From sequence record PZ445533.1: a DNA stretch of 48,914 nt, one strand, 5' to 3'. The notes under the pieces were generated by a model that was not told the DNA's origin, searched no databases, and saw only the letters and a program-made list of their open reading frames with translations. The DNA comes from a phage. Below are positions 1-28,142 of this stretch, piece by piece (the first letter of the stretch is position 1; each line of letters opens with the position of its first letter). A program made the position numbers and the translations under genes.

Positions 1-1569
1 ATGATCATATGGGAAGATTTGACGGCGGCGCAAAAGCGAGCCATTAAAGAAATCAGTGAGCATTCATTCGAAAAGATGATCAGAATCTGGTTTCAGTTAT
101 TGCAGGGGCAAAAATTCCAGAGCAACTGGCATTTTAGCTTATTGTGCAGTGAGGTAGAGAAGATCATCAATGGAGAGTCGCAGAATGTGATTTTCAACAT
201 TACGCCAGGTAGCGGTAAGACTGAGATTTTCTCGATCCACATGTCACCCTACGCGTCATTGAAAAGTCGGAAGGTGAGAAACCTTAACCTTTCGTTTAGT
301 GATGGACTTGTCCAGCAAAACAGCAACAGGATAAAGGAGATTATCGGTTCTCCTGAGTGGCAAGAGCTATGGCCAGGAAAACTGGCAAAGGCGAGCGCAA
401 AAGATCTCATAGTTACGGATGGCGGCAAGGTTAAATTGCAAGTTAACTCACGTTCTATTGGCGGACAGGTAACAGGTTTGCGTGGCGGCTATATGGACGA
501 TGGTTTTACTGGTATGCTGGTTCTGGACGATCCAGACAAGCCGGATGATATGCTTTCTAAGGTCAAGCGTGAGGCGATCCACATGCGGTTAAAAAACACA
601 GTGCGATCGCGTCGAATGAAAGACACTACGCCGATTGTTATGGTGCAACAGCGACTACACGTTAATGATTCCACCTGGTTTATGCTTAATGGCGGGATGG
701 GTGGTATTGAGTTTAAAGTTGTGAGTATTCCGGCGCTGGTTACGAAAGAATACCGCGAAACGCTTCCTGATTGGTTGAAGCCTGAATTTGATCGTGATGT
801 GTTGTCAAGTAAGCCAGTGATGATAGATGGCGTTGCTCATTATTCATTTTGGCCTGCGAAGGAAAGCGCGGAGGAATTGCTTGCATTGCGCAATGCAGAT
901 CCTTATACGTTCGCCAGTCAGTACCAACAGCAACCCATCGCGCTTGGCGGCAACGTGTTTAAAACAGAGTGGTTCCAGTATTACGGCAGCGGCGAAAAAT
1001 GCGCACTTCCTAAACCGGATCGCTTTGAATACACATTTATTACTGGTGATACCGCGCAGAAGGCCGGAGAGCTTAACGACTATTCAGTTTTTTGTTATTG
1101 GGGGATGTATAAGAATCGCGTTTACTTCATTGATGGCATTCGCGGAAAGTGGGAAGCGCCGGATCTTGAATTAAATTTTATTGCCTTCGTTAATCAGTGC
1201 TGGAAGCGCAATAAGGAGTGTGGCAGCTTGCGACGTATCCACATTGAGGATAAGGCCAGCGGCACGGGTTTGATTCAGGGGGCCAAAAAGAAGATCCCGA
1301 TTGATATAAATCCCGTTCAGCGAAGCAATGACAAGGTAACGCGAGCAATGGACGCCGCGCCAGTAATGAGGGCCGGACGTGTGGCACTGCCAGAAAGTCA
1401 TCCCATGTTACCTGAGATACTGGCAGAGGTTGCAGCGTTCACTTTTGACGATTCTCATCCCCATGATGATATTGTCGATAATATAGTTGATGCTGTTAAC
1501 GTCGAAATGAACTTGGCTGATGATCCGGTAGCAAGGATGAAAAAGCTGGCTGGTCTACGCAATAAATAG
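1..1569 (+). CDS. terL: Terminase large subunit (ATPase + nuclease); start may lie at or just before position 1
   Basis: 522 aa; Walker A NITPGSGKT, Walker B MLVLDDPD, acidic nuclease-domain residues; followed by portal; stop TAG embedded in the 21-bp motif. Confidence 0.85.
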   Translation: MIIWEDLTAAQKRAIKEISEHSFEKMIRIWFQLLQGQKFQSNWHFSLLCSEVEKIINGESQNVIFNITPGSGKTEIFSIHMSPYASLKSRKVRNLNLSFSDGLVQQNSNRIKEIIGSPEWQELWPGKLAKASAKDLIVTDGGKVKLQVNSRSIGGQVTGLRGGYMDDGFTGMLVLDDPDKPDDMLSKVKREAIHMRLKNTVRSRRMKDTTPIVMVQQRLHVNDSTWFMLNGGMGGIEFKVVSIPALVTKEYRETLPDWLKPEFDRDVLSSKPVMIDGVAHYSFWPAKESAEELLALRNADPYTFASQYQQQPIALGGNVFKTEWFQYYGSGEKCALPKPDRFEYTFITGDTAQKAGELNDYSVFCYWGMYKNRVYFIDGIRGKWEAPDLELNFIAFVNQCWKRNKECGSLRRIHIEDKASGTGLIQGAKKKIPIDINPVQRSNDKVTRAMDAAPVMRAGRVALPESHPMLPEILAEVAAFTFDDSHPHDDIVDNIVDAVNVEMNLADDPVARMKKLAGLRNK

Positions 1570-1596
1570 CACTAATTGCTAAAAAGTTATATAATC
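1564..1596 (+). repeat. Variant 21-bp box (AAATAGCACTAATTGCTAAAAAG) containing terL stop, followed by TATAAT and terminator
   Basis: Read directly; same variant as at 44639. Confidence 0.45.
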
Positions 1597-1598
1597 AA

Positions 1599-1622
1599 GG
1601 CTGGATTTTTCCAGCCTTTTTT
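1599..1622 (+). terminator. Rho-independent terminator after terL
   Basis: Hairpin GGCTGGA/TCCAGCC plus T-run. Confidence 0.6.
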
Positions 1623-1639
1623 ATTATGGAGATTTGACG

Positions 1640-2932
1640 ATGAGCGAAAAAACAAGGCTAGTTAAGGCCGATGGATACAACGAGATTTTCAAGGGTAGTA
1701 AGGGCAATGGGCGTGTAGAGTTGCCTTTCTTTATGCAGGGGTTCGAATACACCACGCACGCTGATTTTTACATTCGTGACGGCCTAGCAAAACGAATCAT
1801 CGACGTTGTTCCAGAAGAAATGGTGACGCCTGGATTTAATATTGATGGCGTGGAAGATGAGGAGAGTTTTAGATCTTTGTGGGATGAGAAGCGACTAAAC
1901 GATAAAATCATTGATGCGCTTTGCTGGTCGCGTCTTTTTGGTGGCGCTGCAATCGTGGCAATCGTTCAGGATGGCAGGTCGTTAAAGTCACCTGTAGCGC
2001 CTGGTGCAATCCTTGAAGATGTTCGCGTTTACGATCGCTTTCAGGTTAGGGTAGAAAAGCGCGAAACTAATCCACGCAAGGTAAGATATGGTGAGCCATT
2101 AATTTACACCATTTCACCTGGTGTCGACTTGCCAGAATACCAGGTTCACTATTCGCGAGTCTGTATTATCGACGGTGAGCGACTACCAAATCAGCGGCGT
2201 CAATCAAATGATGGGTGGGGTGAGTCGATCCTGAATAAGGGACTTGTTGAGGCTATTTGTGATTATAACTACTGCGAAAACTTAGCAACTCAATTGTTGC
2301 GACGTAAGCAACAGGCGGTATGGAAAGTTAAAGGTCTTGCTGATCTTTGTGATGATGATGATGGTGTTAGTGCCGCACGTTTGCGACTTGCTCAAGTTGA
2401 TGATGAGGGTGGCGTAGGCCGTGCGATCGGCATTGATGCGGAAGATGAGGAATATGATGTTTTAAATTCTGATATTTCTGCCGTCGATTCGTTCTTGGAA
2501 AAGAAGATGGATCGCATTGTATCTCTTTCCGGCATCCATGAAATCATCCTCAAAAACAAGAACGTTGGCGGTGTTAGCGCGAGCCAAAACACGGCGCTTG
2601 AAACCTTCTACAAGCTGATCGACCGAAAGCGAAAGGAAGAATACAAACCAATCCTTGAATTTCTGATCCCGTTCCTTATTCAAGAGGAAGAATGGAGCAT
2701 TCAGTTTGCGCCGTTAAGCGTTCCAAGCGAAAAGGACCAGGCCGAAATCTTGAACAAGAACATTGATTCTTTGAGTAAGGCTATTGACGGTCAATTCATG
2801 GATGCAGAAGAGGCGCGCGACACATTGCGAGCCATTGCGCCTAACGTTAAACTAAAAGACGGCAATGACATTAAATTACCTGAGCAAGACGTAGAGCCGG
2901 AGCCAGGAACAACAGAGGGTAGCAATCAATGA
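1640..2932 (+). CDS. Portal protein
   Basis: 430 aa ORF directly after terL, GGAG RBS 9 nt upstream of ATG 1640; position and size typical of portal; stop overlaps next start (ATGA). Confidence 0.6.
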   Translation: MSEKTRLVKADGYNEIFKGSKGNGRVELPFFMQGFEYTTHADFYIRDGLAKRIIDVVPEEMVTPGFNIDGVEDEESFRSLWDEKRLNDKIIDALCWSRLFGGAAIVAIVQDGRSLKSPVAPGAILEDVRVYDRFQVRVEKRETNPRKVRYGEPLIYTISPGVDLPEYQVHYSRVCIIDGERLPNQRRQSNDGWGESILNKGLVEAICDYNYCENLATQLLRRKQQAVWKVKGLADLCDDDDGVSAARLRLAQVDDEGGVGRAIGIDAEDEEYDVLNSDISAVDSFLEKKMDRIVSLSGIHEIILKNKNVGGVSASQNTALETFYKLIDRKRKEEYKPILEFLIPFLIQEEEWSIQFAPLSVPSEKDQAEILNKNIDSLSKAIDGQFMDAEEARDTLRAIAPNVKLKDGNDIKLPEQDVEPEPGTTEGSNQ

Positions 2933-3684
2933 TAGTGAAAGGCGTCGTTAAACAATGGCGCTTTCCTGAAGCAAGCGAGCGGCAATTGCGCCGCTCAATT
3001 CAGGAGGCGATAAGGGATCTTGTTGTGCTGATGCGCAGCAAAACAAAGGAAATGAAATTTGACGCGGACACCGAAGAAATCAACGCCGCAGAGGATGAGA
3101 TTAGTAGCTTCGCGTTAAAGCTAATAGCTGGCATCGCCGCATCACTTCCGGCTATCGGTCTTGCTGTTTATAAATTCAACGCGAAGCAATTTATTAACGT
3201 AGCCAAATCAACGGGAGGCAAGTCAAATTCAGCCGTTATCATCCTTATGGCTATTGGGGCCAATGCGAATGAGAGTTGGTATAGGACGCTATACGGTCAA
3301 TGGCATGACATGACGATCGCATCTCTTCAAAAGCTATTTGGAAACATCGTGTCTGACTGGTCAACCAATATTAGATTGGCAAACTTTCGCGGAATGAGAG
3401 ATAGCCAGGTTAATGAATTGGCTGGTAAGAGGTTCGCAGTGTATAGCTCTTGGGGTAAGACAAGGGCGGAAAACATCATAGGCGCTTGGAATAGTAGACT
3501 CATGCGCCAGCGTCTTTATGATTCAAAAGTAACTCATTATTTTTGGCATGGTATGCTTGATGACAGAGAGCGATTGCAGCATGTACAATGGGAAGGTAAG
3601 CGCATTGCGCTAGATTCTGAACATGATTTTCCTGGTGAGCCTTTCGGTTGTCGTTGTTGGGCCATACCAGATTGGAACAGTTAA
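2929..3684 (+). CDS. Head morphogenesis / minor head protein (SPP1 gp7 / Mu F-like position)
   Basis: 251 aa ORF translationally coupled to portal; synteny. Confidence 0.5.
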   Translation: MIVKGVVKQWRFPEASERQLRRSIQEAIRDLVVLMRSKTKEMKFDADTEEINAAEDEISSFALKLIAGIAASLPAIGLAVYKFNAKQFINVAKSTGGKSNSAVIILMAIGANANESWYRTLYGQWHDMTIASLQKLFGNIVSDWSTNIRLANFRGMRDSQVNELAGKRFAVYSSWGKTRAENIIGAWNSRLMRQRLYDSKVTHYFWHGMLDDRERLQHVQWEGKRIALDSEHDFPGEPFGCRCWAIPDWNS

Positions 3685-3694
3685 GAGGTATTAA

Positions 3695-4810
3695 ATGAAG
3701 GCAAAACAAAGATTTGATAGCGCCAAAGTAAAGGCGCACTTTGATGATAACGGGTTTTTAGTTGATCGCCCTATCGTGGCGCGAATTGGTTTACAAGTCT
3801 ATCAGACTCCTTTCGGTGAGCGCCGAGAATTTCGCCCTGCGTCAGAAGTATTCAAGGCCGACTCGCTCGCCACCTTTGCAGGGAAGCCGGTCACGGTTGG
3901 TCACGTCACGGTAACGCCAGAAAACGCCGAAAAGGTTGTAGTTGGTTCTTGTGCTGGCGCTGGTGTGCCGAACGGGATCGGCGTAGAGGTTCCGTTAAGC
4001 ATTTACTCAAAACGAGCAATCGAAAGCGCAAAGAAGCGAGACACGGCGGAAATTTCAGTTGGTTATACATCGGTTGATATTGATAAACCAGGCTGGGGCA
4101 ATAATAAAACTGGTGAGTACGTTTTCGATGAGGACGTTAGCGAAGACTGGAAACCTGATTCTCCTGATTGGGTTAAGTTTGATGCAATCCAGACTGAAAT
4201 CAAGGTAAACCACATCGCGTTAGTTTTCCGAGGTCGAGCTGGCATTGCAAAATTAAACCTTGATAGCCAGCAAGATTTTCCGTATAGTGACGACGTTATT
4301 AACAACAAAGAGGATCAAATCATGACTGTAAAAATTAAACTGGATGGCGCTGTAGAGTTTGACGTGCCGAAAGCGGTTGCGGATCACATTGAATCACTGA
4401 AAGCTGATACCAAAGCGCAGAAAGAAAAGGCTGACAGCCTGGAAGCTGAGCGAGACGCACTGCAAACCAAAGTAGATGGCATTCAGGATCAGATTGATGC
4501 CGCAGTCAAGAAGGCCAAAGAAGATGCCGAGCAATATGCTCAATTAGTGGCGGACGCTAAAGAGTTAGGCATCAAGTGCGACGGCCTGGATGCGAAAGCA
4601 ATCAAGGTTGCATACATCAAGGAAGTTATGGGCAATGACGTTTCTGATAAAACTGATGCCTATATCGAAACAGCTTTCGACATCGCCAAAAACTCTGATA
4701 AAATGGCGGCGCAGCGTAAGAGCATTAAAGGTGACTCTTTCGCGAATGAAAAGCAGGATGACGCAGGTTCTAAGCTGAATCCTAACGCTCGTTTTGAGAA
4801 ACTGAAATAA
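3695..4810 (+). CDS. Prohead protease / scaffold fusion (putative)
   Basis: 371 aa; N-terminal GKPVTVGHV and S-x-GY motifs resembling HK97-type prohead protease, C-terminal charged coiled-coil typical of scaffold; AAGAGG RBS. Confidence 0.45.
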   Translation: MKAKQRFDSAKVKAHFDDNGFLVDRPIVARIGLQVYQTPFGERREFRPASEVFKADSLATFAGKPVTVGHVTVTPENAEKVVVGSCAGAGVPNGIGVEVPLSIYSKRAIESAKKRDTAEISVGYTSVDIDKPGWGNNKTGEYVFDEDVSEDWKPDSPDWVKFDAIQTEIKVNHIALVFRGRAGIAKLNLDSQQDFPYSDDVINNKEDQIMTVKIKLDGAVEFDVPKAVADHIESLKADTKAQKEKADSLEAERDALQTKVDGIQDQIDAAVKKAKEDAEQYAQLVADAKELGIKCDGLDAKAIKVAYIKEVMGNDVSDKTDAYIETAFDIAKNSDKMAAQRKSIKGDSFANEKQDDAGSKLNPNARFEKLK

Positions 4811-4822
4811 GGAGTAATTAAA

Positions 4823-5332
4823 ATGGCTAAAATTGGAGCAAGTTATTTTGACACTATGGCGCGTGCGCTTCCTGGTCAGGTATCCGATACTTCGGCGTAT
4901 AACATCGACGGCGCTTGTGTTCTTGACAAGGAAGACGGCATCCCAATCCTGGTTGGCGTGGCTGTTAAGCTAAAAGGAGTTGACTCAATGGGTAATAAGC
5001 TGATCGACGCTATTTCTGGTAGTGGTGATGTTCCTTATGGCGTTGGCATCCGTTCGCACTTTCAAACTACGGCTGATAATGGACGAATGGTTTATGAGGC
5101 TGGCGGCGGAATCAACGTTATGACAGAGGGCCGCGTTTGGATGGTTGGCGATGATACCGACAAGAGCAAAAAACCATCGTATCGTGAGCCTGTAAAAATT
5201 GATGAAAACACTGGCAAGGTGAAAAGTGCTGGCACTATCAATACCAACTGGATTTACACGGGAGATAAAACCACATTTGGAACTGGCGATGATGTGTTGA
5301 CTTTGTTTGAAGTTCAGGTCTTCCCAAGCTAA
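4823..5332 (+). CDS. Capsid accessory/decoration-like protein (paralog 1)
   Basis: 169 aa; shares YNIDG ... GV(A/G)IRS ... W(I)(Y/F)TGD pattern with the next ORF; RBS AAGGAG. Confidence 0.5.
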   Translation: MAKIGASYFDTMARALPGQVSDTSAYNIDGACVLDKEDGIPILVGVAVKLKGVDSMGNKLIDAISGSGDVPYGVGIRSHFQTTADNGRMVYEAGGGINVMTEGRVWMVGDDTDKSKKPSYREPVKIDENTGKVKSAGTINTNWIYTGDKTTFGTGDDVLTLFEVQVFPS

Positions 5333-5337
5333 AATTA

Positions 5338-5362
5338 AGGCGCTCGCTTGAGCGCCTTTTTT
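5338..5362 (+). terminator. Rho-independent terminator
   Basis: GGCGCTC GCTT GAGCGCC plus TTTTTT. Confidence 0.6.
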
Positions 5363-5382
5363 ATTATGTAAGGAGAAATGAA

Positions 5383-6165
5383 ATGGCTAAAGATTATTCA
5401 TCTGTTATGGGTCTTTCTTGCCCTGGTTGTTTGGTTGATTCTACTCGCTACAATATTGATGGAACTGGCGTTTGCGGATCTGAGTCGATCATTGCTGGAA
5501 AAGTTGTTTTCTTCAAAGAGAGAGTGGAAGGTTATAACATATTTGTTGATCATAAAGAGTATGATGCTGTGGTTGCTGGTGTTGCTATAAGGAGCAATAT
5601 CACGACAACGGTTAACGAGGAAGACGGATACTCTGACTATAAGGAAGGAGATTCTATCAATATTTTAACAAGAGGGGTTGTATGGTGCTTAACTCAAACG
5701 ATTGAGTCTGCGCCTGAACATGGCGATCTTGTTTATGTTAACAATGATGGTTTTGTAGCAAAAAGTGATGGCGATGAAATCGTCGATGGCTGGATTTTTA
5801 CTGGTGACTTCTACAAGTTTGATGAAACAATGAACATAGTCGGAGTCAGAATAACGCCGCTTCATCATAGAAAATACCTTCTCACTGGTGCGATCATTGA
5901 GGCCGAAAATGGCTACATAGAGGGAACAGAGACGATTAATAACGTTCAATTAAAGGTAACGGTTGTTCCTACTTGGGCTGATGACAAAACGGGTCAGTGG
6001 ACAATTACAAACGAGCAAGATCCAAAGGTTGCCAGCGTTAGCCGTACAGGTCTTGTTGTTCCTACTGGTGTAGGAGGCAGAGTTAACGTCAACTGGACTG
6101 CTAATGATGGTTCTGGAGTTGCTGACCAGTTTGATATTGTATTTACGAAAACCGCTGGCGAATAA
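5383..6165 (+). CDS. Capsid accessory protein (paralog 2) with C-terminal Ig-like domain
   Basis: 260 aa; N-terminal region paralogous to 4823-5332; C-terminal beta-rich Ig-like segment (VTVVPTW...VNVNWTANDGSG). Confidence 0.5.
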   Translation: MAKDYSSVMGLSCPGCLVDSTRYNIDGTGVCGSESIIAGKVVFFKERVEGYNIFVDHKEYDAVVAGVAIRSNITTTVNEEDGYSDYKEGDSINILTRGVVWCLTQTIESAPEHGDLVYVNNDGFVAKSDGDEIVDGWIFTGDFYKFDETMNIVGVRITPLHHRKYLLTGAIIEAENGYIEGTETINNVQLKVTVVPTWADDKTGQWTITNEQDPKVASVSRTGLVVPTGVGGRVNVNWTANDGSGVADQFDIVFTKTAGE

Positions 6166-6190
6166 CTAATAGCATAAAAAAACATTGCAC

Positions 6191-6208
6191 GTTTAACAAA
6201 AAGTGCTA
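6191..6208 (-). repeat. Isolated copy of 21-bp box (minus orientation) inside structural module
   Basis: TTTAACAAAAAGTGCTAT on + strand; no hairpin/CATCGAAACG tract; TATTAG 22 nt downstream in minus orientation. Confidence 0.5.
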
Positions 6209-6213
6209 TCATC

Positions 6214-6241
6214 TAGGCCGTTACATTTAACGGCCTTTTTT
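6214..6241 (+). terminator. Rho-independent terminator upstream of capsid gene
   Basis: AGGCCGTTA ... TAACGGCCT plus TTTTTT. Confidence 0.6.
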
Positions 6242-6255
6242 ATGGAGGAAGCAAA

Positions 6256-7227
6256 ATGGCTAAAAAATACGATGAATTAGATGCTACCATTGTAGCAAAT
6301 CATTTACAGGTTCAGGGCGTTAAGGGTGATGCTTCTGATATGGGTATTTGGACCGCTCAAGAGCTACACAAGATCCGTTCAACGGCATACGAGAAAGAGT
6401 ATCCGGCAGGTTCCGCACTTCGCGTATTCCCTGTAACAAACGAGCTTTCTGATACTGATAAGACTTTTGAGTATCAGACTTTTGATAAGGTTGGCTACGC
6501 GAAAATTATCGCCGACTACACCGACGATCTGCCGACCGTGGACGCGCTGATGACTTCTGAATTTGGCAAGGTGTTCCGCCTGGGTAACGCTTTTCTGATC
6601 TCCATTGATGAGATTAAAGCAGGTCAGCGAACTGGCAAGAGCCTGTCAACTCGCAAGGCTAACGCTGCGCAAAATGCGCATGATCAGTTGATTAACTTCC
6701 TGGTGTTCAAAGGTTCCAAGCCTCATAAGATCGTTTCCGTTTTCGATCACCCTAACCTTACGAAAATTGTTTCTAAAGGATGGATGAGCCAGGATGGAAA
6801 CACCAAGTTCCCTGATGTGGCAAGCGATGAACTGGAGGCTGCAATCGAGACTATCGAGAAAGTAACAAAAGGTCAGCACCGCGCGACTAACATCCTGATC
6901 CCGCCGTCCATGCGTAAAGTCTTGACGGTTCGAATGGAAAATACCACTGAAAGTTATCTTGAATACTTCCAGAAGCAAAACGGCGGAATCACTATCGACT
7001 CTATCGCAGAGCTTGAGGATATTGACGGCAAAGGTGCGAAAGGTTGCTTGGTTTACGAAAAAGATCCAATGAACATGAGCATTGAGATTCCAGAAGCGTT
7101 TAACATGCTTCCGGCGCAGCCAAAAGACCTTCATTTCAAGGTTCCTTGCACTTCCAAGTGTACTGGCCTTACGATTTACCGTCCGTTTACGATGGTGCTT
7201 ATTACTGGCTTGAAAAAGTCAGTTTAA
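6256..7227 (+). CDS. Major capsid protein (putative)
   Basis: 323 aa, strong RBS GGAGG, followed by a strong rho-independent terminator; synteny. Confidence 0.6.
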   Translation: MAKKYDELDATIVANHLQVQGVKGDASDMGIWTAQELHKIRSTAYEKEYPAGSALRVFPVTNELSDTDKTFEYQTFDKVGYAKIIADYTDDLPTVDALMTSEFGKVFRLGNAFLISIDEIKAGQRTGKSLSTRKANAAQNAHDQLINFLVFKGSKPHKIVSVFDHPNLTKIVSKGWMSQDGNTKFPDVASDELEAAIETIEKVTKGQHRATNILIPPSMRKVLTVRMENTTESYLEYFQKQNGGITIDSIAELEDIDGKGAKGCLVYEKDPMNMSIEIPEAFNMLPAQPKDLHFKVPCTSKCTGLTIYRPFTMVLITGLKKSV

Positions 7228-7238
7228 TTAGATAACAT

Positions 7239-7268
7239 GGGGAGCCTTAAGGGTTCCCCTTTTTTTTT
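7239..7268 (+). terminator. Rho-independent terminator after major capsid gene
   Basis: GGGGAGCC TTAA GGGTTCCCC plus T9. Confidence 0.7.
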
Positions 7269-7286
7269 ATTTACGGAGTACACAAA

Positions 7287-7553
7287 ATGAGCAAAACTTT
7301 AAAACTTAAAGTAACTGGCGTTTGCATGATTATTATGGACGGTAAGCGTTATCACCCTGGTGATGAGATTGAAATTGAATCTGATCGTATTAATGATTCC
7401 GCAATTGAATACCTGATCGCTCGCGGCGATGTGGAAGTTAAAGACAATTCCGAAATTAACGAGCAAATCAAGGAGAAAGCGGAGAAGAAGCGCAAAAAAG
7501 ATCCTACAGAGGGCAAGAGCCGCAAAGAGCTAGAGGATGGCGGCGAATATTAA
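7287..7553 (+). CDS. Hypothetical protein (lysine-rich C-terminus)
   Basis: 88 aa ORF after capsid terminator; ACGGAG RBS. Confidence 0.45.
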
Positions 7554-7599
7554 TAATTGGGGCGCTTATGCGCCCCTTGTCATATCTGGAGAAAACAAA

Positions 7600-8019
7600 A
7601 TGGTAGATGAATTTTACACAGACGCTGAAATCGTTCAGCAAATCGTAAATTTGGCCCCACCAATGCAGCAGGTTGATCCCGATTTAATTGTGGCATGGAT
7701 TGAGCTTGCTAAAGAATTTGTTTGCAAAAAACGGTTTAAAAACTCATACCCGAAAGCGGTTGCGCTTTACACTCTTCACCTTATGACCTTAGACGGGGCA
7801 ATGAAACAGGAAGGTGAAAGCGTAGAAAGCTATTCCCGCCGCGTTGCATCGTTCACTCTGACTGGTGAGTTTAGTCAGACGTTTGATCGAATTTCTTCCG
7901 ATACAAGCGGAAAGCAGATCCGACAAACGCCGTGGGGCAAAATGTACGAAGTGTTAAACCGTAAGCACGGTGGCGGCTTTGGACTTGTAACTGGATTGCG
8001 CCGGAGATGTTGCCGATGA
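7600..8019 (+). CDS. Head-tail connector / head completion protein (putative)
   Basis: 139 aa; RBS GGAGAAAACAAA-ATG; position between capsid and tail genes. Confidence 0.45.
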
Positions 8020-8390
8020 ATTACAATGAGATTGCAAGAATGGCTACTGCTGGGATTAACTTTTTCAGCGACGCTAACGGTATGTTTAAGTGCATCACGC
8101 AGCAGGGAGGGGTTGAGATTATCGGCGGAGAGGAAGTTACCAAGCCTGAGATTTCAGTGATGATAAAGGGGCTTGTTAGATCTCCGAGGACTAGAGAGGT
8201 TGACGGTGAAACGATCCGAGTAACCGACAAGTTGGGGGTATTCACCAATGAAACTGAGATCAAAAATGGTTATCAGATTGAAATTGATGGCGATCGTTAT
8301 GTTGTCGTTGAAGCAAGACCAGTCAGACAGACTAACATCACGGCAGCTTATCGTCCGATATTAAGGAGGATTGCAGTGCATGGCGGATAA
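8016..8390 (+). CDS. Head-tail joining protein (putative)
   Basis: ATGA overlap with upstream gene; synteny. Confidence 0.4.
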
Positions 8391-8823
8391 TTATAAGATC
8401 AGGGAATTTCACGGTGATATAAGCAGGTGGATTGATTCAGTAAGCAGCGGCCTTGTTGATTGCGTTGAAATGTTCGCGACAAACGTCCACGAGGATCTTG
8501 TAAAGCGTTCGCCAGTTGATACGGGCCGATATAAAGCTAACTGGCAGGTAACAGCAAACAAGCCGCCGCTATATGCTCTCAATCAATACGATCGCGATGG
8601 TAGTAAAACCATTGCAGAAGGCAAGCGAGCAATATATGCAATCATGCGGGGTGGTGGCGCGGTGCGGTCAATCTATTTTTCAAACATGCTTATTTACGCC
8701 AATGCGCTTGAATACGGGCATTCAAAACAAGCGCCGTCCGGCGTGCTGGGAATCGTGGCGGTAAAGCTGCGATCCTATATGACTAAGGCAATAAAGGATT
8801 CGAGGGCAAAAAATGCACTATGA
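8380..8823 (+). CDS. Neck / tail completion protein (putative)
   Basis: AAGGAGGA RBS 9 nt upstream of ATG 8380; synteny. Confidence 0.4.
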   Translation: MADNYKIREFHGDISRWIDSVSSGLVDCVEMFATNVHEDLVKRSPVDTGRYKANWQVTANKPPLYALNQYDRDGSKTIAEGKRAIYAIMRGGGAVRSIYFSNMLIYANALEYGHSKQAPSGVLGIVAVKLRSYMTKAIKDSRAKNAL

Positions 8824-9214
8824 TTTAATGTTAGCGGCAAGAAAGGCGCTGGCGGAGGAATATGAATCACGATTCAAGATCGCCTATGAAAACGTTGATT
8901 TTGTTCCGCCTGGTGATGGTTCGATGTGGTTAAAATTTGACTACATGGAAGCCGACACAGATCGCATATCTCTTGATAGAAAATGCGTTTCTTATATCGG
9001 ATTGGTTCAGGTTGGAATTGTTATGCCTCCTGGCGGCGGCACTGATAAAGCGCGTTTGCTGGCTAAAGAGATTGCGAGATTTTTCTATGATGGTAGAATG
9101 TTTGAAACTGGCTATATTAGCGAGGGGGCAAACGTCCACGCATTACTAAAAAGTGAAACAGGTTGGTTCTTACCGATACGTTTCAGTGTTAGGCTTGACA
9201 CAAAGGAGGAATAA
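8813..9214 (+). CDS. Tail terminator-like protein (putative)
   Basis: 133 aa ORF overlapping upstream stop; synteny before major tail gene. Confidence 0.4.
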   Translation: MHYDLMLAARKALAEEYESRFKIAYENVDFVPPGDGSMWLKFDYMEADTDRISLDRKCVSYIGLVQVGIVMPPGGGTDKARLLAKEIARFFYDGRMFETGYISEGANVHALLKSETGWFLPIRFSVRLDTKEE

Positions 9215-9216
9215 TC

Positions 9217-9879
9217 ATGCACTTGCCTAATGGTTCTCAAATTTTCATCGGCGTTAATATGGGTGAGCCAATTAGCGCGACTCAAATCAGCAATGCTGAT
9301 AATCCTGTTTTTACAACCGAAAACACTCAAAGCATCAAAAAAGGCGCTTATGTTCTTATTGAAACATCTTCTTGGGGCAAACTTGTTAGTCGAGTGCTTC
9401 GAGTTAAGGAAGTATCAGATAATGCAAGTGTTACTCTTGAGGGTGTTAGCACTAAAGATACAAACGTATTTCCAGAAGGACAGAACACAGCAACTTTCCG
9501 AGAAGTGAAATCTTGGGTAGAGGTTCCTTGCGTACAGGATCTTGCGCAGGACGGCGGCGAGCAACAGTATTACACTTATCAGTGTTTGGCTGATGACCAG
9601 GAGCAGCAGTTGCCGACCTACAAGAGCGCGGTTTATCTTACCTACACTTTCGCTCATGAATATGATAACCCGATTTATCCGATCTTGCGCGAGGCTGAGG
9701 AATCCGGCGACGTAACCGCTTTGCGTATGTACGTGCCGAAAGCTAAAGAGATGCGTTGCTGGGCTGGCGTATTGTCTTTTAATGACATTCCGCAAACAAC
9801 TATGAACGAAATGGAAACTGTTTCCCTTTCTGTATCTCTGAAAGGCCGATTCACGTTCTTACCTTCCGACGTTAAGTAA
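9217..9879 (+). CDS. Major tail protein (putative)
   Basis: 220 aa, AGGAGG RBS, followed by strong terminator and then chaperone G/GT. Confidence 0.55.
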   Translation: MHLPNGSQIFIGVNMGEPISATQISNADNPVFTTENTQSIKKGAYVLIETSSWGKLVSRVLRVKEVSDNASVTLEGVSTKDTNVFPEGQNTATFREVKSWVEVPCVQDLAQDGGEQQYYTYQCLADDQEQQLPTYKSAVYLTYTFAHEYDNPIYPILREAEESGDVTALRMYVPKAKEMRCWAGVLSFNDIPQTTMNEMETVSLSVSLKGRFTFLPSDVK

Positions 9880-9884
9880 AACAA

Positions 9885-9906
9885 GGGGCGTTGCGCCCCT
9901 TTTTTC
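9885..9906 (+). terminator. Rho-independent terminator after major tail gene
   Basis: GGGGCG TTG CGCCCC plus T-run. Confidence 0.65.
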
Positions 9907-9945
9907 ATTCCTGTAAAATCAATCTATCAAATAAATTAATTCCAC

Positions 9946-9964
9946 TTTTAACAAAAAGTGCTAT
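9946..9964 (-). repeat. Isolated copy of 21-bp box (minus orientation) abutting RBS of chaperone G gene
   Basis: TTTTAACAAAAAGTGCTAT directly followed by AAGGAG and ATG 9979. Confidence 0.5.
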
Positions 9965-9978
9965 AAGGAGATCTTAAG

Positions 9979-10296
9979 ATGGCAAAGATGAAACTAACGT
10001 TAGGCCCACTGCCTGATTTTAAGCTGCCTGTTTCTTTCGTGCTTCCAAATGGTGATGAGCAAGTTATTGTTTTTACCGTGCGCCACAAGAAGGCAAGCGA
10101 AATTCACGAACGATACACGGCAGAAAAGCCGATGAGCGACGTAGAAATGATCACCTTCCTTGCTTCCGGTTGGGATCTGGAAGATGAATTTAACGAGGAA
10201 AACGTTGCTAAATTGCTGGATTATTACCCGTCTGCGTCATTATCGCTGACTGGTCATTATATGAAAGCACTTGCGGGGCAGCGGGTAAAAAACTAA
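9979..10296 (+). CDS. Tail assembly chaperone (G-like)
   Basis: 105 aa acidic ORF immediately upstream of tape measure; ends at slippery A-AAA-AAC. Confidence 0.65.
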   Translation: MAKMKLTLGPLPDFKLPVSFVLPNGDEQVIVFTVRHKKASEIHERYTAEKPMSDVEMITFLASGWDLEDEFNEENVAKLLDYYPSASLSLTGHYMKALAGQRVKN

Positions 10297-10613
10297 AGCG
10301 GGCGGTTTACCTGTTTTACCTCAAGCCGCCAACTGACGCACAATTAGAGGCCGTCGGCCTATCCCGTTCAGACTACGAAGGGGAGGAGCCGCCGGAGGTA
10401 ATTTTTGATGAATCAATGTTTCAATCTTGGGATCTGTTTTGCGCTATGCAGACGCAATGGAGATCGACTAGCGGCAGTGTGTATGGGTTCGACTATAACG
10501 TTTTGCCTATGCTTTTTGACATTTACAAGATTGAGGATCGGGAGATGGCGCTAAATGATTTGCGCATCATGGAACAAAAGGCGCTAGAAATGATTCATTC
10601 AAACAAAACATAA
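9979..10613 (+). CDS. Tail assembly chaperone GT-like fusion produced by programmed -1 frameshift at 10287-10293
   Basis: Slippery heptamer A AAA AAC two codons before the G stop; -1 frame is open from 10293 and runs into ORF 10416-10613. Confidence 0.55.
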
Positions 10614-10652
10614 GCGCCGAGAGGCGCTTTTTTAATATCTGGAGGTTTTAAA

Positions 10653-13334: not shown

Positions 13335-13336
13335 TA

Positions 13337-13687
13337 ATGAAGCTGGATCAGTTTAAGTGGTGTACGCAGGTTCAGAATGGTGGCGGGGCCATGACGTCAT
13401 CGAATAACGATCGAGAGATTGCATTCGGTAACGGATACACACAGGTAGCATCTGGAGGTTTTAACACAATCCGGCGAGAGTTCAGCATTGTTTACGCTGG
13501 GCTTGATTACAGAGATGTTGTCAAGTTCCTGAATGAGCACAGGCTAAAACCTTTCTTGTGGATCATGCCAGATGGAAGCCCTGGATTGTTTAGGGTGAAA
13601 AGCGGTAGCGTCGGCCTTACTCCATTGTCGCCAACCGTTCAGGAAGTAAAAGCCACTTTTACGGAACAATTTACATCAATGCAGTAA
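13337..13687 (+). CDS. Minor tail protein (lambda gpM-like position)
   Basis: GAGG RBS; 116 aa directly after tape measure. Confidence 0.5.
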   Translation: MKLDQFKWCTQVQNGGGAMTSSNNDREIAFGNGYTQVASGGFNTIRREFSIVYAGLDYRDVVKFLNEHRLKPFLWIMPDGSPGLFRVKSGSVGLTPLSPTVQEVKATFTEQFTSMQ

Positions 13688-13691
13688 TTTA

Positions 13692-13717
13692 AAGCCGCCT
13701 TTGTGCGGCTTTTTTCT
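13692..13717 (+). terminator. Rho-independent terminator
   Basis: AGCCGC ... GCGGCT plus TTTTTT. Confidence 0.55.
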
Positions 13718-13749
13718 TGATGTTACAATGAGCAAAAAGGAGGTAGAAA

Positions 13750-14511
13750 ATGGCTAATAAAGAATCAGGTAGAGTTGAATTTGAGAACTGCCTACAAAGT
13801 TTGTACCCAGGCGAAATTATAACGCTTGTAGAGATTGACGGGACGAAGTTCGGAGCAAATATTTACCGATTTCACAATGAGAACATCTCTTATACTGCCG
13901 AAGAATTAATGCAAGCGCAGCAAACCGGAATATTGCCGCCGAAAGATATTATTTTTCAGGGTGAGGTTTACGGAGCGCGGCCTTTCGGTGTGAGCGGTAT
14001 TAACTTCACAAGTAACGGCAGGGCAGATAAGCCTCAGCTTATAGTGTCAAACCTTGACAGCAGGGTGAGCGCCATGATCAGAAATTACAATGGCATGATG
14101 CAAGCAAAGGTGACTTTCTGGATAACGGCAAAGGAATTTATCGGAGAAGGCGGAGCAATCAAAGATGGCGCTTACAGAAAATTGGTTTATTACATTGAGC
14201 GCCCAAGCCAGTACAATAGAGAGATAGCGAAATTTGATCTAACATCGCCTTACGATATGGATGGACTGATGATCCCGCCGCGCATCACTCAAAGCGTTTG
14301 CTATTGGGCGCAAAGGGGATGGTACAGGAGCGGAAAGGGTTGCTCTTATAACGGATCGGCAATGTTCGATAAAGACAATAAGCCAGTAACAGATCCATCA
14401 CAAGACTATTGCGCCGGAACTGTAACGGCTTGCAAATTGAGGTTCGGTCAGCAAAACGAATTGGATTTCGGCGGTTGCGCGGTTGCTTCACTGCTACGGA
14501 GGAATCAATAA
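13750..14511 (+). CDS. Minor tail protein L-like
   Basis: 253 aa; C-terminal conserved Cys cluster as in lambda gpL; synteny. Confidence 0.6.
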   Translation: MANKESGRVEFENCLQSLYPGEIITLVEIDGTKFGANIYRFHNENISYTAEELMQAQQTGILPPKDIIFQGEVYGARPFGVSGINFTSNGRADKPQLIVSNLDSRVSAMIRNYNGMMQAKVTFWITAKEFIGEGGAIKDGAYRKLVYYIERPSQYNREIAKFDLTSPYDMDGLMIPPRITQSVCYWAQRGWYRSGKGCSYNGSAMFDKDNKPVTDPSQDYCAGTVTACKLRFGQQNELDFGGCAVASLLRRNQ

Positions 14512-15242
14512 TGATTAGTGCAAAAATTAAACTTGAAATAATGCAGCACGTTAAAGAGGAATACCCTAAAGAGGCTTGCGGCGTCATAACTCAAAAGTCA
14601 CGGGTACAGAAATATCACCGCATAACCAACGTGCATGACGATCCAGAAAATCATTTTGAAATGGACGCCGTAGAATACGCTGAATCGCTCGACAAAGGCG
14701 AATTAATCGCGGTGGTGCATTCCCATTGCGGGGATGGTGCTAGCACGATACCGAGCGCGCACGACTCATGTATGTGCGATGAAATGGGTGTGTCGTGGAT
14801 TATAGTGTCATGGCCCGAAGGTGATATGAGAATTGTCGAGCCGCAGGAGAGGCCGCTTATCGGTCGCCCGTGGTCGCTGGGGTCGTTCGATTGCTGGGGT
14901 CTTATCATGGCATGGCATAAACAGCACGGAGTAGTATTGAATGACTTCCGAAAGCCTTACGAGTGGTGGAAGTCAGAATATGGTGAAAATCTTTACCAGG
15001 ATAATTATTTGAAAGAGGGATTTGTTGAAACTAACGAGCCTCCAAAACCTGGTGATATGGTGATTATGCAGCTATCATCGCCAGTCTGGAATCATGCGGG
15101 GATTTATTTGGGTAACAATCAGCTATTACATCATGCGTTTGGAAAGCTATCTCGCATTGACTTGTATTCTGGATGGTATCAGGAGCACACTGTAAAAATT
15201 TGCCGACATAAGGATCTGAAATATGACATTGAAAGTAATTAA
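14511..15242 (+). CDS. Tail tip assembly protein K-like (JAB/MPN + NlpC/P60 domains)
   Basis: JAMM-like HSHCGDG...S..HD motif and NlpC/P60-type Cys (DCWGL) with downstream His; TAATG overlap with L. Confidence 0.75.
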   Translation: MISAKIKLEIMQHVKEEYPKEACGVITQKSRVQKYHRITNVHDDPENHFEMDAVEYAESLDKGELIAVVHSHCGDGASTIPSAHDSCMCDEMGVSWIIVSWPEGDMRIVEPQERPLIGRPWSLGSFDCWGLIMAWHKQHGVVLNDFRKPYEWWKSEYGENLYQDNYLKEGFVETNEPPKPGDMVIMQLSSPVWNHAGIYLGNNQLLHHAFGKLSRIDLYSGWYQEHTVKICRHKDLKYDIESN

Positions 15243-15819: not shown

Positions 15820-15826
15820 AAAAATA

Positions 15827-26502: not shown

Positions 26503-26522
26503 AAATAGCACTTTTTGCTAAT
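26503..26522 (+). repeat. Isolated copy of 21-bp box upstream of tail fibre gene (opposite orientation)
   Basis: AAATAGCACTTTTTGCTAAT located 10 nt beyond fibre gene RBS. Confidence 0.5.
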
Positions 26523-26555
26523 GACAATGCAGATAATAGCATTTTCAAGTGCAAA

Positions 26556-27578: not shown

Positions 27579-28055
27579 TTAGCTATTCGTGCTGTTATCA
27601 CCTTTGTAGAATCTTCCGCCTGGTTCGTAGTCTGAATTTTTGACTACGCGCAACATTTCGTATTTGTCGCAACGGGTAGTAAGAGGCTTGCCGTTAGAAT
27701 CAAACCGCAGATCTGGACGACAAAATGATGCGCGGTATCCTTTGCATCCATTATATTTGTAGTCGTTATGCACCTTTTGTGCTCCAGCGGCTGAAATCAT
27801 ACCACGCTTTCGCCATTGGTTAACGACTTGCTGAGATACGCGCAGACGTCGAGCCATAGCAGGAACACCGCCATAATACTCGATCAGAATATCCAGGCGA
27901 GATTTCAGGCTTGCTTTTACCTCATCTCGCAGGATAAGGAATCCGGTTCGGTGTTTTCGTGGCTTTTTGTCTTTACCTCGTCGCGTTCCGTTGTTACCGT
28001 TAATAGTGCGCTTGTCGATCTCACCCGTAGATACTGCAATTCGTGCATCTTTCAT
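27579..28055 (-). CDS. Cro/YdaS-like HTH DNA-binding protein with C-terminal Cys cluster
   Basis: GGVPAMARRLRVSQQVVNQWRKRG HTH signature; basic N-terminus; GAGGTGA RBS. Confidence 0.55.
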   Translation of the reverse strand: MKDARIAVSTGEIDKRTINGNNGTRRGKDKKPRKHRTGFLILRDEVKASLKSRLDILIEYYGGVPAMARRLRVSQQVVNQWRKRGMISAAGAQKVHNDYKYNGCKGYRASFCRPDLRFDSNGKPLTTRCDKYEMLRVVKNSDYEPGGRFYKGDNSTNS

Positions 28056-28065
28056 CTAGTCACCT

Positions 28066-28130
28066 CATAGCATTTTTTGTTAAAACAGTTTATTGTAATG
28101 AGTCTATTATATACTCCAAATGGCATTTTT
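28066..28130 (+). promoter_or_regulatory. Motif copy in divergent region between HTH gene and helicase
   Basis: ATAGCATTTTTTGTTAAAAC then TATTAT 22 nt after TTGTTA, no hairpin; about 60 nt upstream of helicase ATG. Confidence 0.4.
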
Positions 28131-28142
28131 TAAAGGTTTAAG

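What the first reader, a model, noticed from the sequence alone, without database searches (positions are those of the whole stretch)
6191..6208. Orphan copies of the 21-bp box inside the structural module, antisense to late genes
Copies at 6191-6208 and 9946-9964 (both inverted relative to the flanking + strand capsid/tail genes) and at 26503-26522 lack the hairpin and CATCGAAACGAAC tract. The 6191 copy still has TATTAG 22 nt downstream in minus orientation; the 9946 copy directly abuts the RBS of the chaperone gene. If the box is a promoter, these would drive antisense transcripts into late genes; if it is a protein-binding site, they could be orientation-independent regulatory or architectural sites.
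Basis: seen in the sequence. Interest (0 to 1): 0.45.

Follow-up and report, generated by a model that had tools for sequence, protein, structure and literature searches.

The report
Regulator sites inside late-gene promoters
The three "orphan" copies of the repeated box in this T1-like phage are conserved sites placed inside or just after the ordinary promoters of the capsid, tail and tail-fibre genes, most likely so that a phage regulator can hold those late genes down; they are not stray antisense promoters.

Summary
The window is a T1-like coliphage (Drexlerviridae, 99% identical to phages tuinn/tunus). The box (ATAGCACnnnTTGnTAA) is real: 18 copies against about 1.6 expected by chance. 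It is the 21-nt repeat already published for phages TLS and T1, where its function is listed as unknown.

They are not orphans. Each keeps its position and orientation in dozens of relatives, including T1 and TLS.

- **6193-6209:** forms the spacer, the TG and the first half of the -10 of a family-wide sigma-70 promoter facing the capsid gene.
- **26505-26521:** lies about +5 to +21 after a conserved extended -10 promoter of the tail-fibre gene.
- **9948-9964:** lies in the leader of the tail-chaperone promoter. It also keeps the cassette geometry (box, 21 nt, TGnTAnnnT) pointing backwards into a bidirectional terminator.

The layout at 9948 matches the pir/helicase region at 28067. In T1, the regulator Pir represses its own promoter and activates a cassette promoter.

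Best reading: these are operators, probably for Pir, that repress late promoters. Binding and the sign of regulation are inferred, not shown.

The parts
6193..6209 (-). Box copy (ATAGCACTTTTTGTTAA on the minus strand). It occupies the spacer, the TG and the first three bases of the -10 of the capsid-gene promoter.
   Evidence: Best box match is in this orientation in 77/77 relatives. Box columns are more conserved than the flanks (0.86 vs 0.62/0.53). Also present in T1 at 15070 and in TLS as DR7.
6185..6212 (+). Sigma-70-type extended -10 promoter of the major capsid gene: TTGCAC (6185-6190), 16-nt spacer, TG (6204-6205), TATCAT (6207-6212). An A-tract lies upstream at 6176-6182.
   Evidence: for coordinates. 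In relatives: TTGNNN 73/73, TG 73/73, TAnnnT 70/73, while the other positions vary. The window's own hexamers score 8/12, so the simple scan does not list it.
6215..6242 (+). G+C-rich hairpin plus T-run between the promoter and the capsid-gene SD. The predicted start (about 6219) lies inside its 5' arm.
   Evidence: terminator-like site.: -13.5 kcal/mol when folded from 6213; the hairpin is lost when folded from 6219.
9883..9919 (+). Bidirectional terminator of the major tail gene (9883-9901) with an embedded sense promoter: TTGCGC in the loop (9891-9896), 17 nt, TAAAAT (9914-9919).
   Evidence: The -35/-10 pair is kept in all relatives, including those without the box.
9948..9964 (-). Box copy in the leader of the tail-chaperone gene (about +22 to +38 of the sense promoter), abutting the SD at 9965-9970.
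   Evidence: Present in a subset of relatives and in T1 (18834), always in this orientation and next to the SD. Box conservation 0.98 vs 0.78/0.56 for the flanks.
9921..9929 (-). Antisense extended -10 (TGA TAGATT on the minus strand) exactly 21 nt from the box. It is 1 nt from the sense -10.
   Evidence: TAnnnT at +21 in 16/16 distinct sequences, most with TGn. for coordinates. The predicted product runs into the minus-strand terminator.
26505..26521 (+). Box copy between the tail-fibre promoter and its SD (about +5 to +21 on the minus strand), inverted relative to the gene.
   Evidence: Conserved in 20 distinct relatives and in T1 (34902). Conservation 0.90 vs 0.62/0.59 for the flanks.
26533..26541 (-). 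Extended -10 of the lateral tail-fibre gene promoter (TGC TATTAT on the minus strand), downstream of the primase terminator.
   Evidence: TGCTATTAT / TGCTAAAAT / TGCTAGAAT / TGCTATAAT / TGATAAAAT across relatives. for coordinates.
28067..28083 (+). Box copy in the pir/helicase divergent region. It spans -50 to -34 of the helicase promoter (-10 TATTAT at 28105-28110) and about +16 to +32 of the pir promoter. This is the reference case for reading the orphans.
   Evidence: Conserved in 20 distinct relatives (0.98). T1 has the same layout at 36444; TLS has it as P57 plus DR11.
28106..28134 (-). pir promoter: TTTAAA (28134-28129), 17 nt, TATAAT (28111-28106). Its -10 overlaps the helicase -10 on the other strand.
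   Evidence: Relatives have TTGAAT, TTGCGT or TTTAAC, then 17 nt, then TATAAT.
27579..28055 (-). Gene for the Pir orthologue (158 aa, Cro/YdaS-like helix-turn-helix). It is the only recognisable transcription regulator in the window and the candidate box-binding protein.
   Evidence: 58% identity to T1 Orf23/Pir, E 7e-51; phrog_2856; helix-turn-helix at residues about 53-92, below the Pfam cut-off. No other regulator among the 37 other early ORFs scanned.
1566..1595 (+). Co-directional box copy (ATAGCACTAATTGCTAA, 1566-1582) over -37 to -21 of a TATAAT (1590-1595) in front of the portal gene, followed by a terminator hairpin at 1597-1618. This is a fourth late-gene promoter overlapped by a box.
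   Evidence: The geometry is kept in 16 distinct relatives.

Best explanation
The box is a quasi-symmetric 17-21-bp operator (TAGCA-N5-TG(C/T)TA) for a phage-encoded DNA-binding regulator, most likely the Pir orthologue encoded at 27579-28055. Its effect depends on where it sits. In about 14 'cassette' promoters it lies at -50 to -34, exactly 21 nt (20 nt at two copies) upstream of a -10, and there is no -35. There it acts as a class-II-type activator site. The so-called orphans are the same operator placed where a bound protein gets in the way of RNA polymerase at ordinary sigma-70 promoters that face late genes. One lies across the spacer and extended -10 of the capsid promoter (6193). One lies at about +5 to +21 of the tail-fibre promoter (26505). 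One lies in the leader of the tail-chaperone promoter (9948). A fourth box lies across the -35 region of the portal promoter (1566). At 9948 the box also keeps a complete activator-type promoter that points backwards. Its -10 is 1 nt from the sense -10, and its product would be stopped by the bidirectional terminator after roughly 40 nt. This is a gene-less copy of the pir/helicase switch, so polymerase recruited to it would shut out the tail promoter. What is shown: the anatomy, its conservation, the promoter signals, and (for T1, published) that Pir activates one cassette promoter and represses its own. What is inferred: that Pir binds the box, that late promoters are repressed rather than activated, and how repression is later lifted (possibly by titration as genomes replicate).
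For: The motif is real and repeated. Cassette geometry holds: nAnnnT lies 20-21 nt from the box in 43 of 49 boxes in the window, T1 and Klebsiella phage TAH8, and the -35 match is no better than random (2.42 vs 2.49 of 6). At the capsid site, all 77 relatives have the box in the sense orientation, with TTGNNN 73/73, TG 73/73 and TAnnnT 70/73. The tail-fibre, pir and chaperone sites keep position and orientation in 17-20 distinct relatives each and in T1. The box is more conserved than its flanks at all four sites (0.86-0.98 vs 0.53-0.78). The antisense -10 at the chaperone site is kept in 16/16 sequences although the 21-nt spacer sequence varies. The minus-strand terminator is supported. Published experiments in T1 (PMC6737242) show that Pir activates Pdam and represses Ppir. 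In the T1 sequence Pdam is a canonical cassette (box at 38953) and Ppir has the box between promoter and SD (36444). The window encodes a Pir orthologue. It is the only regulator recognised and occurs in 850 phage records, essentially all Drexlerviridae. TLS lists the same layout without interpreting it: P57 with DR11, and DR7 on the 'neg' strand.
Against: No binding data exist for Pir or any other protein on the box. Two Pir-responsive T1 reporters (Phol activated, PrecE repressed) contain no canonical box, only half-site-like ATAGC. The T1 orf65 promoter has a canonical (G-type) cassette box yet is reported to be Pir-independent and activated by Orf65. So Pir may not read all boxes, or may not read the box at all. 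The dyad symmetry is only 4-5 of 7 per half-site. The sign of regulation at late promoters is argued from position alone. Several late promoters (for example 15833-15861) have no box. No transcript-mapping data were found for any Drexlerviridae. The box sequence does not vary between genera, so no covariation test with the regulator was possible.
Confidence: 0.55

Rival explanations
1. Host-read element. The box is recognised by E. coli RNA polymerase itself (an UP-like or displaced -35 element; it contains TTTTnnnAAA and TTGnTA) or by a host factor, not by a phage protein. The late-gene copies then modulate polymerase binding directly.
For: The TLS authors raise the UP-element idea. The box has T- and A-tracts and a TTG. 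At least some early genes must be transcribed before any phage protein exists. CRP is reported to repress Ppir, Pdam and PrecE in T1.
Against: The ATAGCAC half is nearly invariant, which UP elements do not explain. The T/A tracts lie about 8 bp closer to the -10 than in the UP consensus (this positional comparison rests on recalled knowledge of the consensus). TTGnTA lies 22 nt from the -10, outside the working spacer range. The CRP consensus fits the boxes no better than random positions. The Lrp consensus gives 13 hits against 13.0 expected. Pir alone changes Pdam and Ppir activity in uninfected cells.
Confidence: 0.2
2. Antisense promoters. The inverted copies fire leftward and make antisense RNAs that act on late-gene transcripts.
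For: The 9948 copy has the full cassette geometry with an extended -10, conserved in 16/16 relatives and in T1. A short hairpin-ended RNA is predicted.
Against: At 6193 and 26505 there is no usable -10 at the cassette distance, and none is conserved. At 9948 the transcript would be stopped within roughly 40 nt by the minus-strand terminator and overlaps only the 3' untranslated end of the major tail gene. All four copies sit in or just after promoters facing the late gene.
Confidence: 0.08
3. RNA-level element. Transcribed as UUAACAAAAAGUGCUAU directly 5' of the SD, the box acts in the mRNA leader as a translational enhancer or operator, or as a stability element.
For: At three genes (chaperone, tail fibre, pir) the box abuts the SD within 0-13 nt in all relatives.
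Against: The capsid copy lies upstream of the predicted start and would not be transcribed. Cassette copies would be transcribed, if at all, as the complementary sequence. The leaders show no significant structure (z -0.4 and -1.3). The same 17-mer in two orientations is more simply explained by recognition of double-stranded DNA.
Confidence: 0.07
4. Relics or recombination linkers. The copies are leftovers of cassette shuffling between T1-like phages, or short homology patches that promote such shuffling, and have no regulatory role.
For: The chaperone copy is present in some lineages and absent in others. Genes flanking the capsid promoter differ between relatives. Promoter plus stem-loop cassettes are thought to mediate shuffling in T4-type phages (recalled knowledge, not checked here).
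Against: The copies are perfect or near-perfect, more conserved than their flanks, and fixed in orientation and in distance to promoter hexamers and the SD down to 53-56% capsid-protein identity. Decaying relics would drift.
Confidence: 0.05

Closest known systems
21-nt intergenic direct repeats of phage TLS, also noted in T1, Rtp and Rogue1 (PMC11447400)
   Same: It is the same element: consensus aaATAGCACnnnTTGnTAAAA, about 18-21 copies per genome, mostly about 76 nt upstream of start codons. TLS DR7 is the capsid-gene copy and DR11 is the pir/helicase copy.
   Different: The paper states that all repeats lie in the direction of transcription, leaves the function open (stoperator, enhancer or UP element) and lists it as an unanswered question. 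The inverted late-gene copies, their placement inside sigma-70 promoters and any link to Pir are not described there (Pir is not mentioned).
Phage T1 regulator Pir (Orf23) and its regulon (PMC6737242)
   Same: The window encodes an orthologue (58% identity) in the same place, divergent from the helicase gene. In T1, Pir activates one cassette-type promoter (dam) and represses its own, which matches the box positions.
   Different: No Pir binding site has been published. Phol and PrecE respond to Pir without a canonical box, and Porf65 has a box but does not respond. That work was framed around a carrier or lysogenic state, not late-gene timing.
Lambda OR (cI at PR/PRM) and similar divergent-promoter switches
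   Same: One operator between back-to-back promoters represses one and activates the other, from a position centred near -42. This is the layout at 28067 and, without a gene on the activated side, at 9948.
   Different: There is a single site rather than three cooperative ones. The phage is virulent. No repressor/Cro pair is known. The comparison rests on geometry only.
Activator-dependent, -35-less late or middle promoters of phage Mu (Mor, C) and class II activators
   Same: A -10 is present, no -35, and an imperfect dyad is centred about 42-43 bp upstream of the start at a fixed distance.
   Different: The protein family differs (Pir has a Cro/YdaS-like helix-turn-helix). Here the activated genes are early or middle, and the same site is reused inside late promoters.
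Stoperators of mycobacteriophage L5
   Same: A short asymmetric operator is repeated through the genome. Some copies lie downstream of promoters in short intergenic gaps, in one orientation relative to transcription. The TLS authors suggested this analogy.
   Different: Only 3-4 of 18 copies are downstream of a promoter; most are upstream activator-type sites. L5 stoperators serve prophage silencing by the repressor. Blocking of elongation has not been tested here.

Membership tests
Drexlerviridae 21-nt repeat (TLS DR family) | Match to aaATAGCACnnnTTGnTAAAA | tested here: met
   6193, 9948 and 26505 match all 13 specified core positions. The flanking TAAAA is complete only at 9948.
Drexlerviridae 21-nt repeat (TLS DR family) | Many intergenic copies per genome | tested here: met
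   18 copies against 1.6 expected. 17 copies by the pattern scan in T1 and 13-18 per genome in T1 and TAH8 by a looser pattern.
Drexlerviridae 21-nt repeat (TLS DR family) | Oriented with transcription, about 76 nt upstream of a start codon (as published) | tested here: not met
   The three copies are inverted and lie 15-47 nt from the start codon. TLS's own DR7 breaks the published rule too. The rule describes the cassette class only.
Sigma-70 extended -10 promoter (capsid-gene promoter 6185-6212) | TTGNNN -35, 16-18-nt spacer, TGn, TAnnnT -10, kept across relatives while other bases vary | tested here: met
   73/73, 73/73 and 70/73 in relatives.
Sigma-70 extended -10 promoter (capsid-gene promoter 6185-6212) | Mapped transcription start | not testable with these tools
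   No transcript data for this phage family were found.
Pir operator | The regulator is encoded by the same genome and co-occurs with the box | tested here: met
   An orthologue is present in the window, T1, TAH8 and TLS. All of these carry the box.
Pir operator | Pir-responsive promoters carry the box, and box-bearing promoters respond to Pir | tested here: inconclusive
   Pdam and Ppir fit. Phol and PrecE respond without a canonical box. Porf65 has a box but is Pir-independent.
Pir operator | Direct, sequence-specific binding | not testable with these tools
   Needs a gel-shift or footprint experiment. The single-sequence structure model was unusable (pLDDT 36.6).
Antisense promoter of cassette type | TAnnnT 20-21 nt downstream of the box in ATAGCAC orientation, conserved in relatives | tested here: not met
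   Not met at 6193 (TATTAG; T at -7 in 2/18 variants) or 26505 (TTTCAA). Met at 9948 only (16/16).
L5-type stoperator | Asymmetric operator downstream of a promoter in one orientation that blocks elongation when bound | tested here: inconclusive
   Position and constant orientation are met at 9948, 26505 and 28067. The block to elongation cannot be tested here.
Host CRP or Lrp site | Match to TGTGA-N6-TCACA or YAGHAWATTWTDCTR above chance | tested here: not met
   CRP: 4-5 mismatches of 10, the same as random positions. Lrp: 13 hits against 13.0 expected, and only 4 boxes are among them.

The most novel reading that the evidence does not exclude
A single 17-21-bp operator, read by Pir, would be the master timing device of T1-like phages. 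From -42 it would switch on about 14 promoters that lack a -35 (early and middle genes). From inside or just after four ordinary sigma-70 promoters it would hold down the portal, capsid, tail and fibre genes and pir itself. One copy (9948) would be a gene-less decoy promoter whose only job is to shut polymerase out of the tail promoter. Late genes would then turn on as replicating genomes titrate an autorepressed regulator.
Probability: 0.3. Interest if true: 0.65.

Novelty: new member of a known kind. Interest (0 to 1): 0.5.

Why it matters
T1 is one of the seven classic T phages, yet how it times its late genes is unknown. The authors of the 2024 TLS genome paper explicitly list the function of this 21-nt repeat as an open question. 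Two observations here turn that question into a few simple experiments. First, the inverted copies sit inside conserved late-gene promoters. Second, two published Pir reporter results match the box positions. The experiments are Pir gel shifts, promoter fusions with box mutations, and 5'-end mapping. The work also corrects the published statement that all repeats are co-directional with transcription. It supplies promoter calls for the capsid, tail-chaperone, tail-fibre and pir genes that consensus scans miss. The kind of mechanism, one operator that activates or represses depending on its position, is familiar.

Tried and rejected
- **Consensus promoter scan of 1-20000:** 28 hits against 30 expected, so it is uninformative. 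It misses the capsid promoter because TTGCAC scores 3/6. The promoter call rests on comparative data instead.
- **Lrp as host binder (recalled resemblance; consensus located):** 13 hits against 13.0 expected. Rejected.
- **CRP as binder (suggested by reported CRP repression in T1):** the boxes are no closer to the CRP consensus than random positions. Rejected.
- **Covariation test.** I looked for a genus where the cassette box had changed, to see whether the capsid-promoter copy changed with it. The Webervirus capsid variant ATATCACGAATCGTTAA occurs once per contig, and Webervirus cassettes keep the canonical box. The test is not possible.
- **Two regulators for two box subtypes (T-type for Pir, G-type for Orf65):** TAH8 has G-type boxes but no Orf65 homologue. 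The window has two G-type boxes and no Orf65 homologue; T1 Orf65 is phrog_10642, which is absent here. Box subtype at a given site also changes between relatives. Not supported.
- **Antisense extended -10 inside cassette boxes (TGCTATnnn):** the T at -7 is not conserved. Rejected.
- **Structure prediction of Pir from a single sequence:** pLDDT 36.6, unusable, so no fold search was run.
- **Literature search for transcriptome or start-site data on any Drexlerviridae:** none found. The exact box string appears in no indexed paper.
- **RNA structure in the box-containing leaders:** not significant.

Full report
**What the window is**

The 6-kb stretch around the finding is 99% identical to Escherichia phages tuinn and tunus and matches 247 phage records. 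A close relative, Bas05 PeterMerian, is classified as Drexlerviridae, Tempevirinae. Gene content agrees: portal at 1634-2932, major head protein at 6256-7227, major tail protein at 9217-9879, tape-measure chaperone at 9979-10296. On the minus strand lie a lateral tail fibre gene ending at about 26487, a primase, and a small 'transcriptional regulator' at 27579-28055 that is divergent from a helicase gene at 28143.

**The observation**

The three copies are real:
- 6193-6209 and 9948-9964 read TTAACAAAAAGTGCTAT on the + strand.
- 26505-26521 reads ATAGCACTTTTTGCTAA on the + strand.

The motif is far above chance. There are 16 hits at <=3 mismatches against 0.25 expected. There are 18 hits to ATAGCACNNNTTGNTAA at <=2 mismatches against 1.6 in shuffles. 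The second scan adds two copies with a GAA centre, at 27579 and 44640.

In the common 'cassette' form the order is: stop codon, ATAGCACTTTTTGTTAA, 21 nt (20 nt at two copies, usually a variable hairpin), a -10-like hexamer, CATCGAAACGAAC or a variant, SD, ATG.

**The element is already in the literature**

The 2024 TLS genome paper (PMC11447400) describes a 21-nt repeat, aaATAGCACnnnTTGnTAAAA, at 21 places in TLS and notes it in T1, Rtp and Rogue1. It says the repeats lie in the direction of transcription about 76 nt before start codons. It offers stoperator, enhancer and UP-element ideas and lists the function as an open question. Its own supplementary table contains DR7, 'neg 15044..15024', directly before the terminator that precedes the capsid gene. 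That is the TLS equivalent of the 6193 copy, on the 'wrong' strand and not commented on.

**Comparative data**

I fetched three sets of relatives:
- 79 loci around the capsid gene, with 53-98% protein identity. One of them has the exact length of TLS.
- 27 loci around the primase gene, with 59-99% identity.
- The complete genomes of T1 and of Klebsiella phage TAH8, a Webervirus.

**Capsid copy (6193)**

In all 77 loci that include the region upstream of the capsid gene, the best box match is in the same orientation as in the window. 71 of them have <=2 mismatches. Read on the + strand, the alignment shows a textbook sigma-70 promoter: an A-tract, TTGCAC/TTGACG/TTGACC/TTGAAC, a 16-nt spacer, TG, and TATCAT/TATTCT/TATATT/TATTAT. 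Across relatives TTG is kept in 73/73, TG in 73/73 and TAnnnT in 70/73, while the other hexamer positions vary.

In the window the parts are TTGCAC 6185-6190, TG 6204-6205 and TATCAT 6207-6212. The box is therefore the spacer, the TG and the first half of the -10 of a promoter that faces the capsid gene.

On the minus strand, the hexamer 21 nt from the box begins with TA, but the T at its last position is seen in only 2 of 18 variants. In most relatives that TA comes from the upstream gene's stop codon; in the window the stop codon lies just upstream of the hexamer. T1 has the same arrangement at 15070.

**Tail-fibre copy (26505)**

On the minus strand, after the primase terminator, every relative has an extended -10: TGCTATTAT, TGCTAAAAT, TGCTAGAAT, TGCTATAAT or TGATAAAAT. 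Eleven nt later comes the box in TTAACA orientation, then the SD and ATG. The box would span about +5 to +21. In cassette orientation there is nothing -10-like at 21 nt (TTTCAA). T1 has the same layout at 34902.

**Chaperone copy (9948)**

All relatives, with or without the box, keep a promoter built into the major-tail terminator: TTGCGC in the hairpin loop, 17 nt, then TAAAAT or a similar hexamer (window 9891-9896 and 9914-9919). A subset of lineages, including T1 at 18834, carries an extra block of roughly 35 nt between this promoter and the SD. The box at the end of that block always has the same orientation and lies 0-13 nt from the SD.

In the minus orientation this block has the full cassette geometry: box, 21 nt of variable sequence, then TAGATT/TATCAT/TAGCAT/TAGAGT/TAGGAT/TACAGT and so on. 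TAnnnT is kept in 16 of 16 distinct sequences, mostly with TGn in front. The antisense -10 (9921-9926) is 1 nt from the sense -10, so two polymerases cannot occupy both at once.

An antisense transcript starting near 9913 would run into the minus-strand face of the terminator. That face forms a hairpin of -15.6 kcal/mol (z = -3.5) followed by UUGUUUUAC. The product would be about 40 nt and would cover no coding sequence.

**The reference case: pir/helicase (28067)**

The same box lies 21 nt upstream of the helicase -10 (TATTAT, 28105-28110). On the other strand it lies 22 nt downstream of a canonical promoter, TTTAAA-17-TATAAT (28134-28106), abutting the SD of the regulator gene. The two -10 hexamers overlap. 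This layout is kept in 20 distinct relatives, in T1 (36444) and in TLS. In TLS, P57 is one of only three sigma-70 promoters its authors accepted, and DR11 lies between P57 and gp57.

**A fourth late promoter**

The copy at 1566 is co-directional. It sits 7 nt before a conserved TATAAT or TACAAT, so it covers -37 to -21, with TAGCAC at the -35 position. A terminator hairpin and the portal gene follow. Sixteen distinct relatives keep this arrangement.

**Conservation**

At the capsid, chaperone, fibre and pir sites, the mean frequency of the commonest base is 0.86-0.98 within the box against 0.53-0.78 in the flanks.

**How cassette promoters look to polymerase**

In the window, T1 and TAH8, 43 of 49 boxes have nAnnnT 20-21 nt downstream. 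The best -35 match at 16-18-nt spacing is 2.42 of 6 against 2.49 at random positions. These promoters lack a -35 and carry the box at -50 to -34, which is the position of a class II activator site. The box is an imperfect dyad (TAGCA-N5-TGCTA or TGTTA), as expected for a helix-turn-helix dimer. The symmetry is modest, however, at 4-5 of 7 per half-site.

**Who binds?**

The regulator at 27579-28055 is 58% identical to T1 Orf23 (E = 7e-51). It has a Cro/YdaS-like helix-turn-helix at about residues 53-92, below Pfam's cut-off, with PDB Cro-like hits at E = 6e-4.

For T1, PMC6737242 renamed Orf23 'Pir'. With plasmid reporters in uninfected cells, it showed that Pir activates the dam and hol promoters and represses its own and the recE promoter. 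No binding site is given. In the T1 sequence the dam reporter contains a canonical cassette box and the pir reporter contains the box between promoter and SD. Both results go in the direction the geometry predicts.

Three observations count against a simple picture:
- The hol and recE reporters hold no canonical box.
- The orf65 promoter has a canonical GAA-type cassette box but is reported to be independent of Pir and activated by Orf65, which also represses pir.
- Orf65 cannot be the general binder, because it has no homologue in the window or in TAH8.

Pir homologues occur in 850 phage records, essentially all Drexlerviridae. No other regulator is recognisable among the 37 other early ORFs scanned, and only Pir is annotated as a regulator in Bas05.

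**Best explanation**

The box is an operator for a phage regulator, most likely Pir. Upstream at -42 it activates. Inside or just after a sigma-70 promoter it represses. The 'orphans' are the repressing class, placed at the capsid, tail-fibre and tail-chaperone promoters, with a related copy at the portal promoter. The 9948 copy is a gene-less duplicate of the pir/helicase switch, and polymerase recruited to its backward promoter would exclude the tail promoter.

The anatomy and its conservation are shown. The two T1 reporter results anchor the sign for two of the geometries. Binding, repression of the late promoters, and the way repression ends are inferred.

**Rivals**

- Recognition by host polymerase or a host factor remains possible. 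CRP and Lrp do not fit.
- Antisense RNA against late genes is excluded for two copies and is implausible for the third.
- An RNA-level role in the leaders cannot cover the capsid copy, and the leaders are unstructured.
- Relics or recombination linkers are contradicted by the conservation.

**Verdict**

'Orphan' and 'antisense to late genes' are not. The element and the regulator are both published, separately. What appears to be new is the placement of inverted copies inside conserved late promoters and the link between the two. That is a new member of a familiar kind of phage circuit. It bears on an explicitly stated open question and is easy to test.

Noticed in passing
window 9883-9919 and 15826-15861: Promoters are built into terminators. 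The -35 (TTGCGC) lies in the loop and 3' arm of the terminator hairpin, the T-run forms the spacer, and a -10 (TAAAAT or TATAAT) follows at 17 nt. The 9883 example is kept in all relatives, down to Webervirus.
   Followed up: partly
window 1590-1624 and 6207-6242: The reverse order also occurs. A -10 is followed 1-4 nt later by a strong terminator hairpin, so the predicted start falls inside the 5' arm. Folding from 6213 gives the hairpin (-13.5 kcal/mol); folding from 6219 does not. Read-through from upstream would stop there, while promoter-initiated RNA would escape.
   Followed up: partly
window 27579-27595 and 44640-44656: Two further box copies with a GAA centre (ACAGCACGAATAGCTAA and ATAGCACGAATTGCTAA) were missed by a search with the TTT-centred form. 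Both have a -10 at 21 nt. The first overlaps the stop codon of pir and would drive the primase gene.
   Followed up: partly
window cassettes, for example 31676-31688, 34827-34839, 40885-40897; also T1 (L107) and TAH8 (L133): The sequence at the predicted start, CATCGAAACGAAC with variants such as CATCGACAACAA, is conserved across genera directly after the -10 of cassette promoters. Its role (start-site context, leader function) is unknown.
   Followed up: no
TLS Supplementary Table S1 (PMC11447400), DR7 and DR11: The paper's text says all repeats are co-directional with transcription. DR7 is on the opposite strand to the capsid gene, and DR11 lies between promoter P57 and gene 57 on the opposite strand.
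   Followed up: yes
window 20743-21170; T1 (L107) 29850-30378: A roughly 430-nt A+T-rich non-coding stretch lies between the cor-like gene and the recE-like gene, with many short direct and inverted repeats. In T1 the equivalent stretch carries repeated GTGTAACAG-like words. It could be an origin or a control region. A canonical TTGACT-16-TACAAT promoter precedes recE.
   Followed up: no
window 26487 vs 26511: The mechanical ORF for the tail-fibre gene starts at a GTG inside the box (26511). The conserved SD (AGGAGG) and the ATG at 26487 are the likely true start, matching the annotation of relatives.
   Followed up: partly
Pir alignment A1 (window 27582-28055 minus strand and 8 relatives): Outside the helix-turn-helix, Pir has an invariant N-terminal D-x-R-x-x-NGNNG-x-x-RGKD-x-K-x-R motif (residues 14-33) and invariant cysteines (C104, C129). 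Neither is explained by the Cro-like domain.
   Followed up: no
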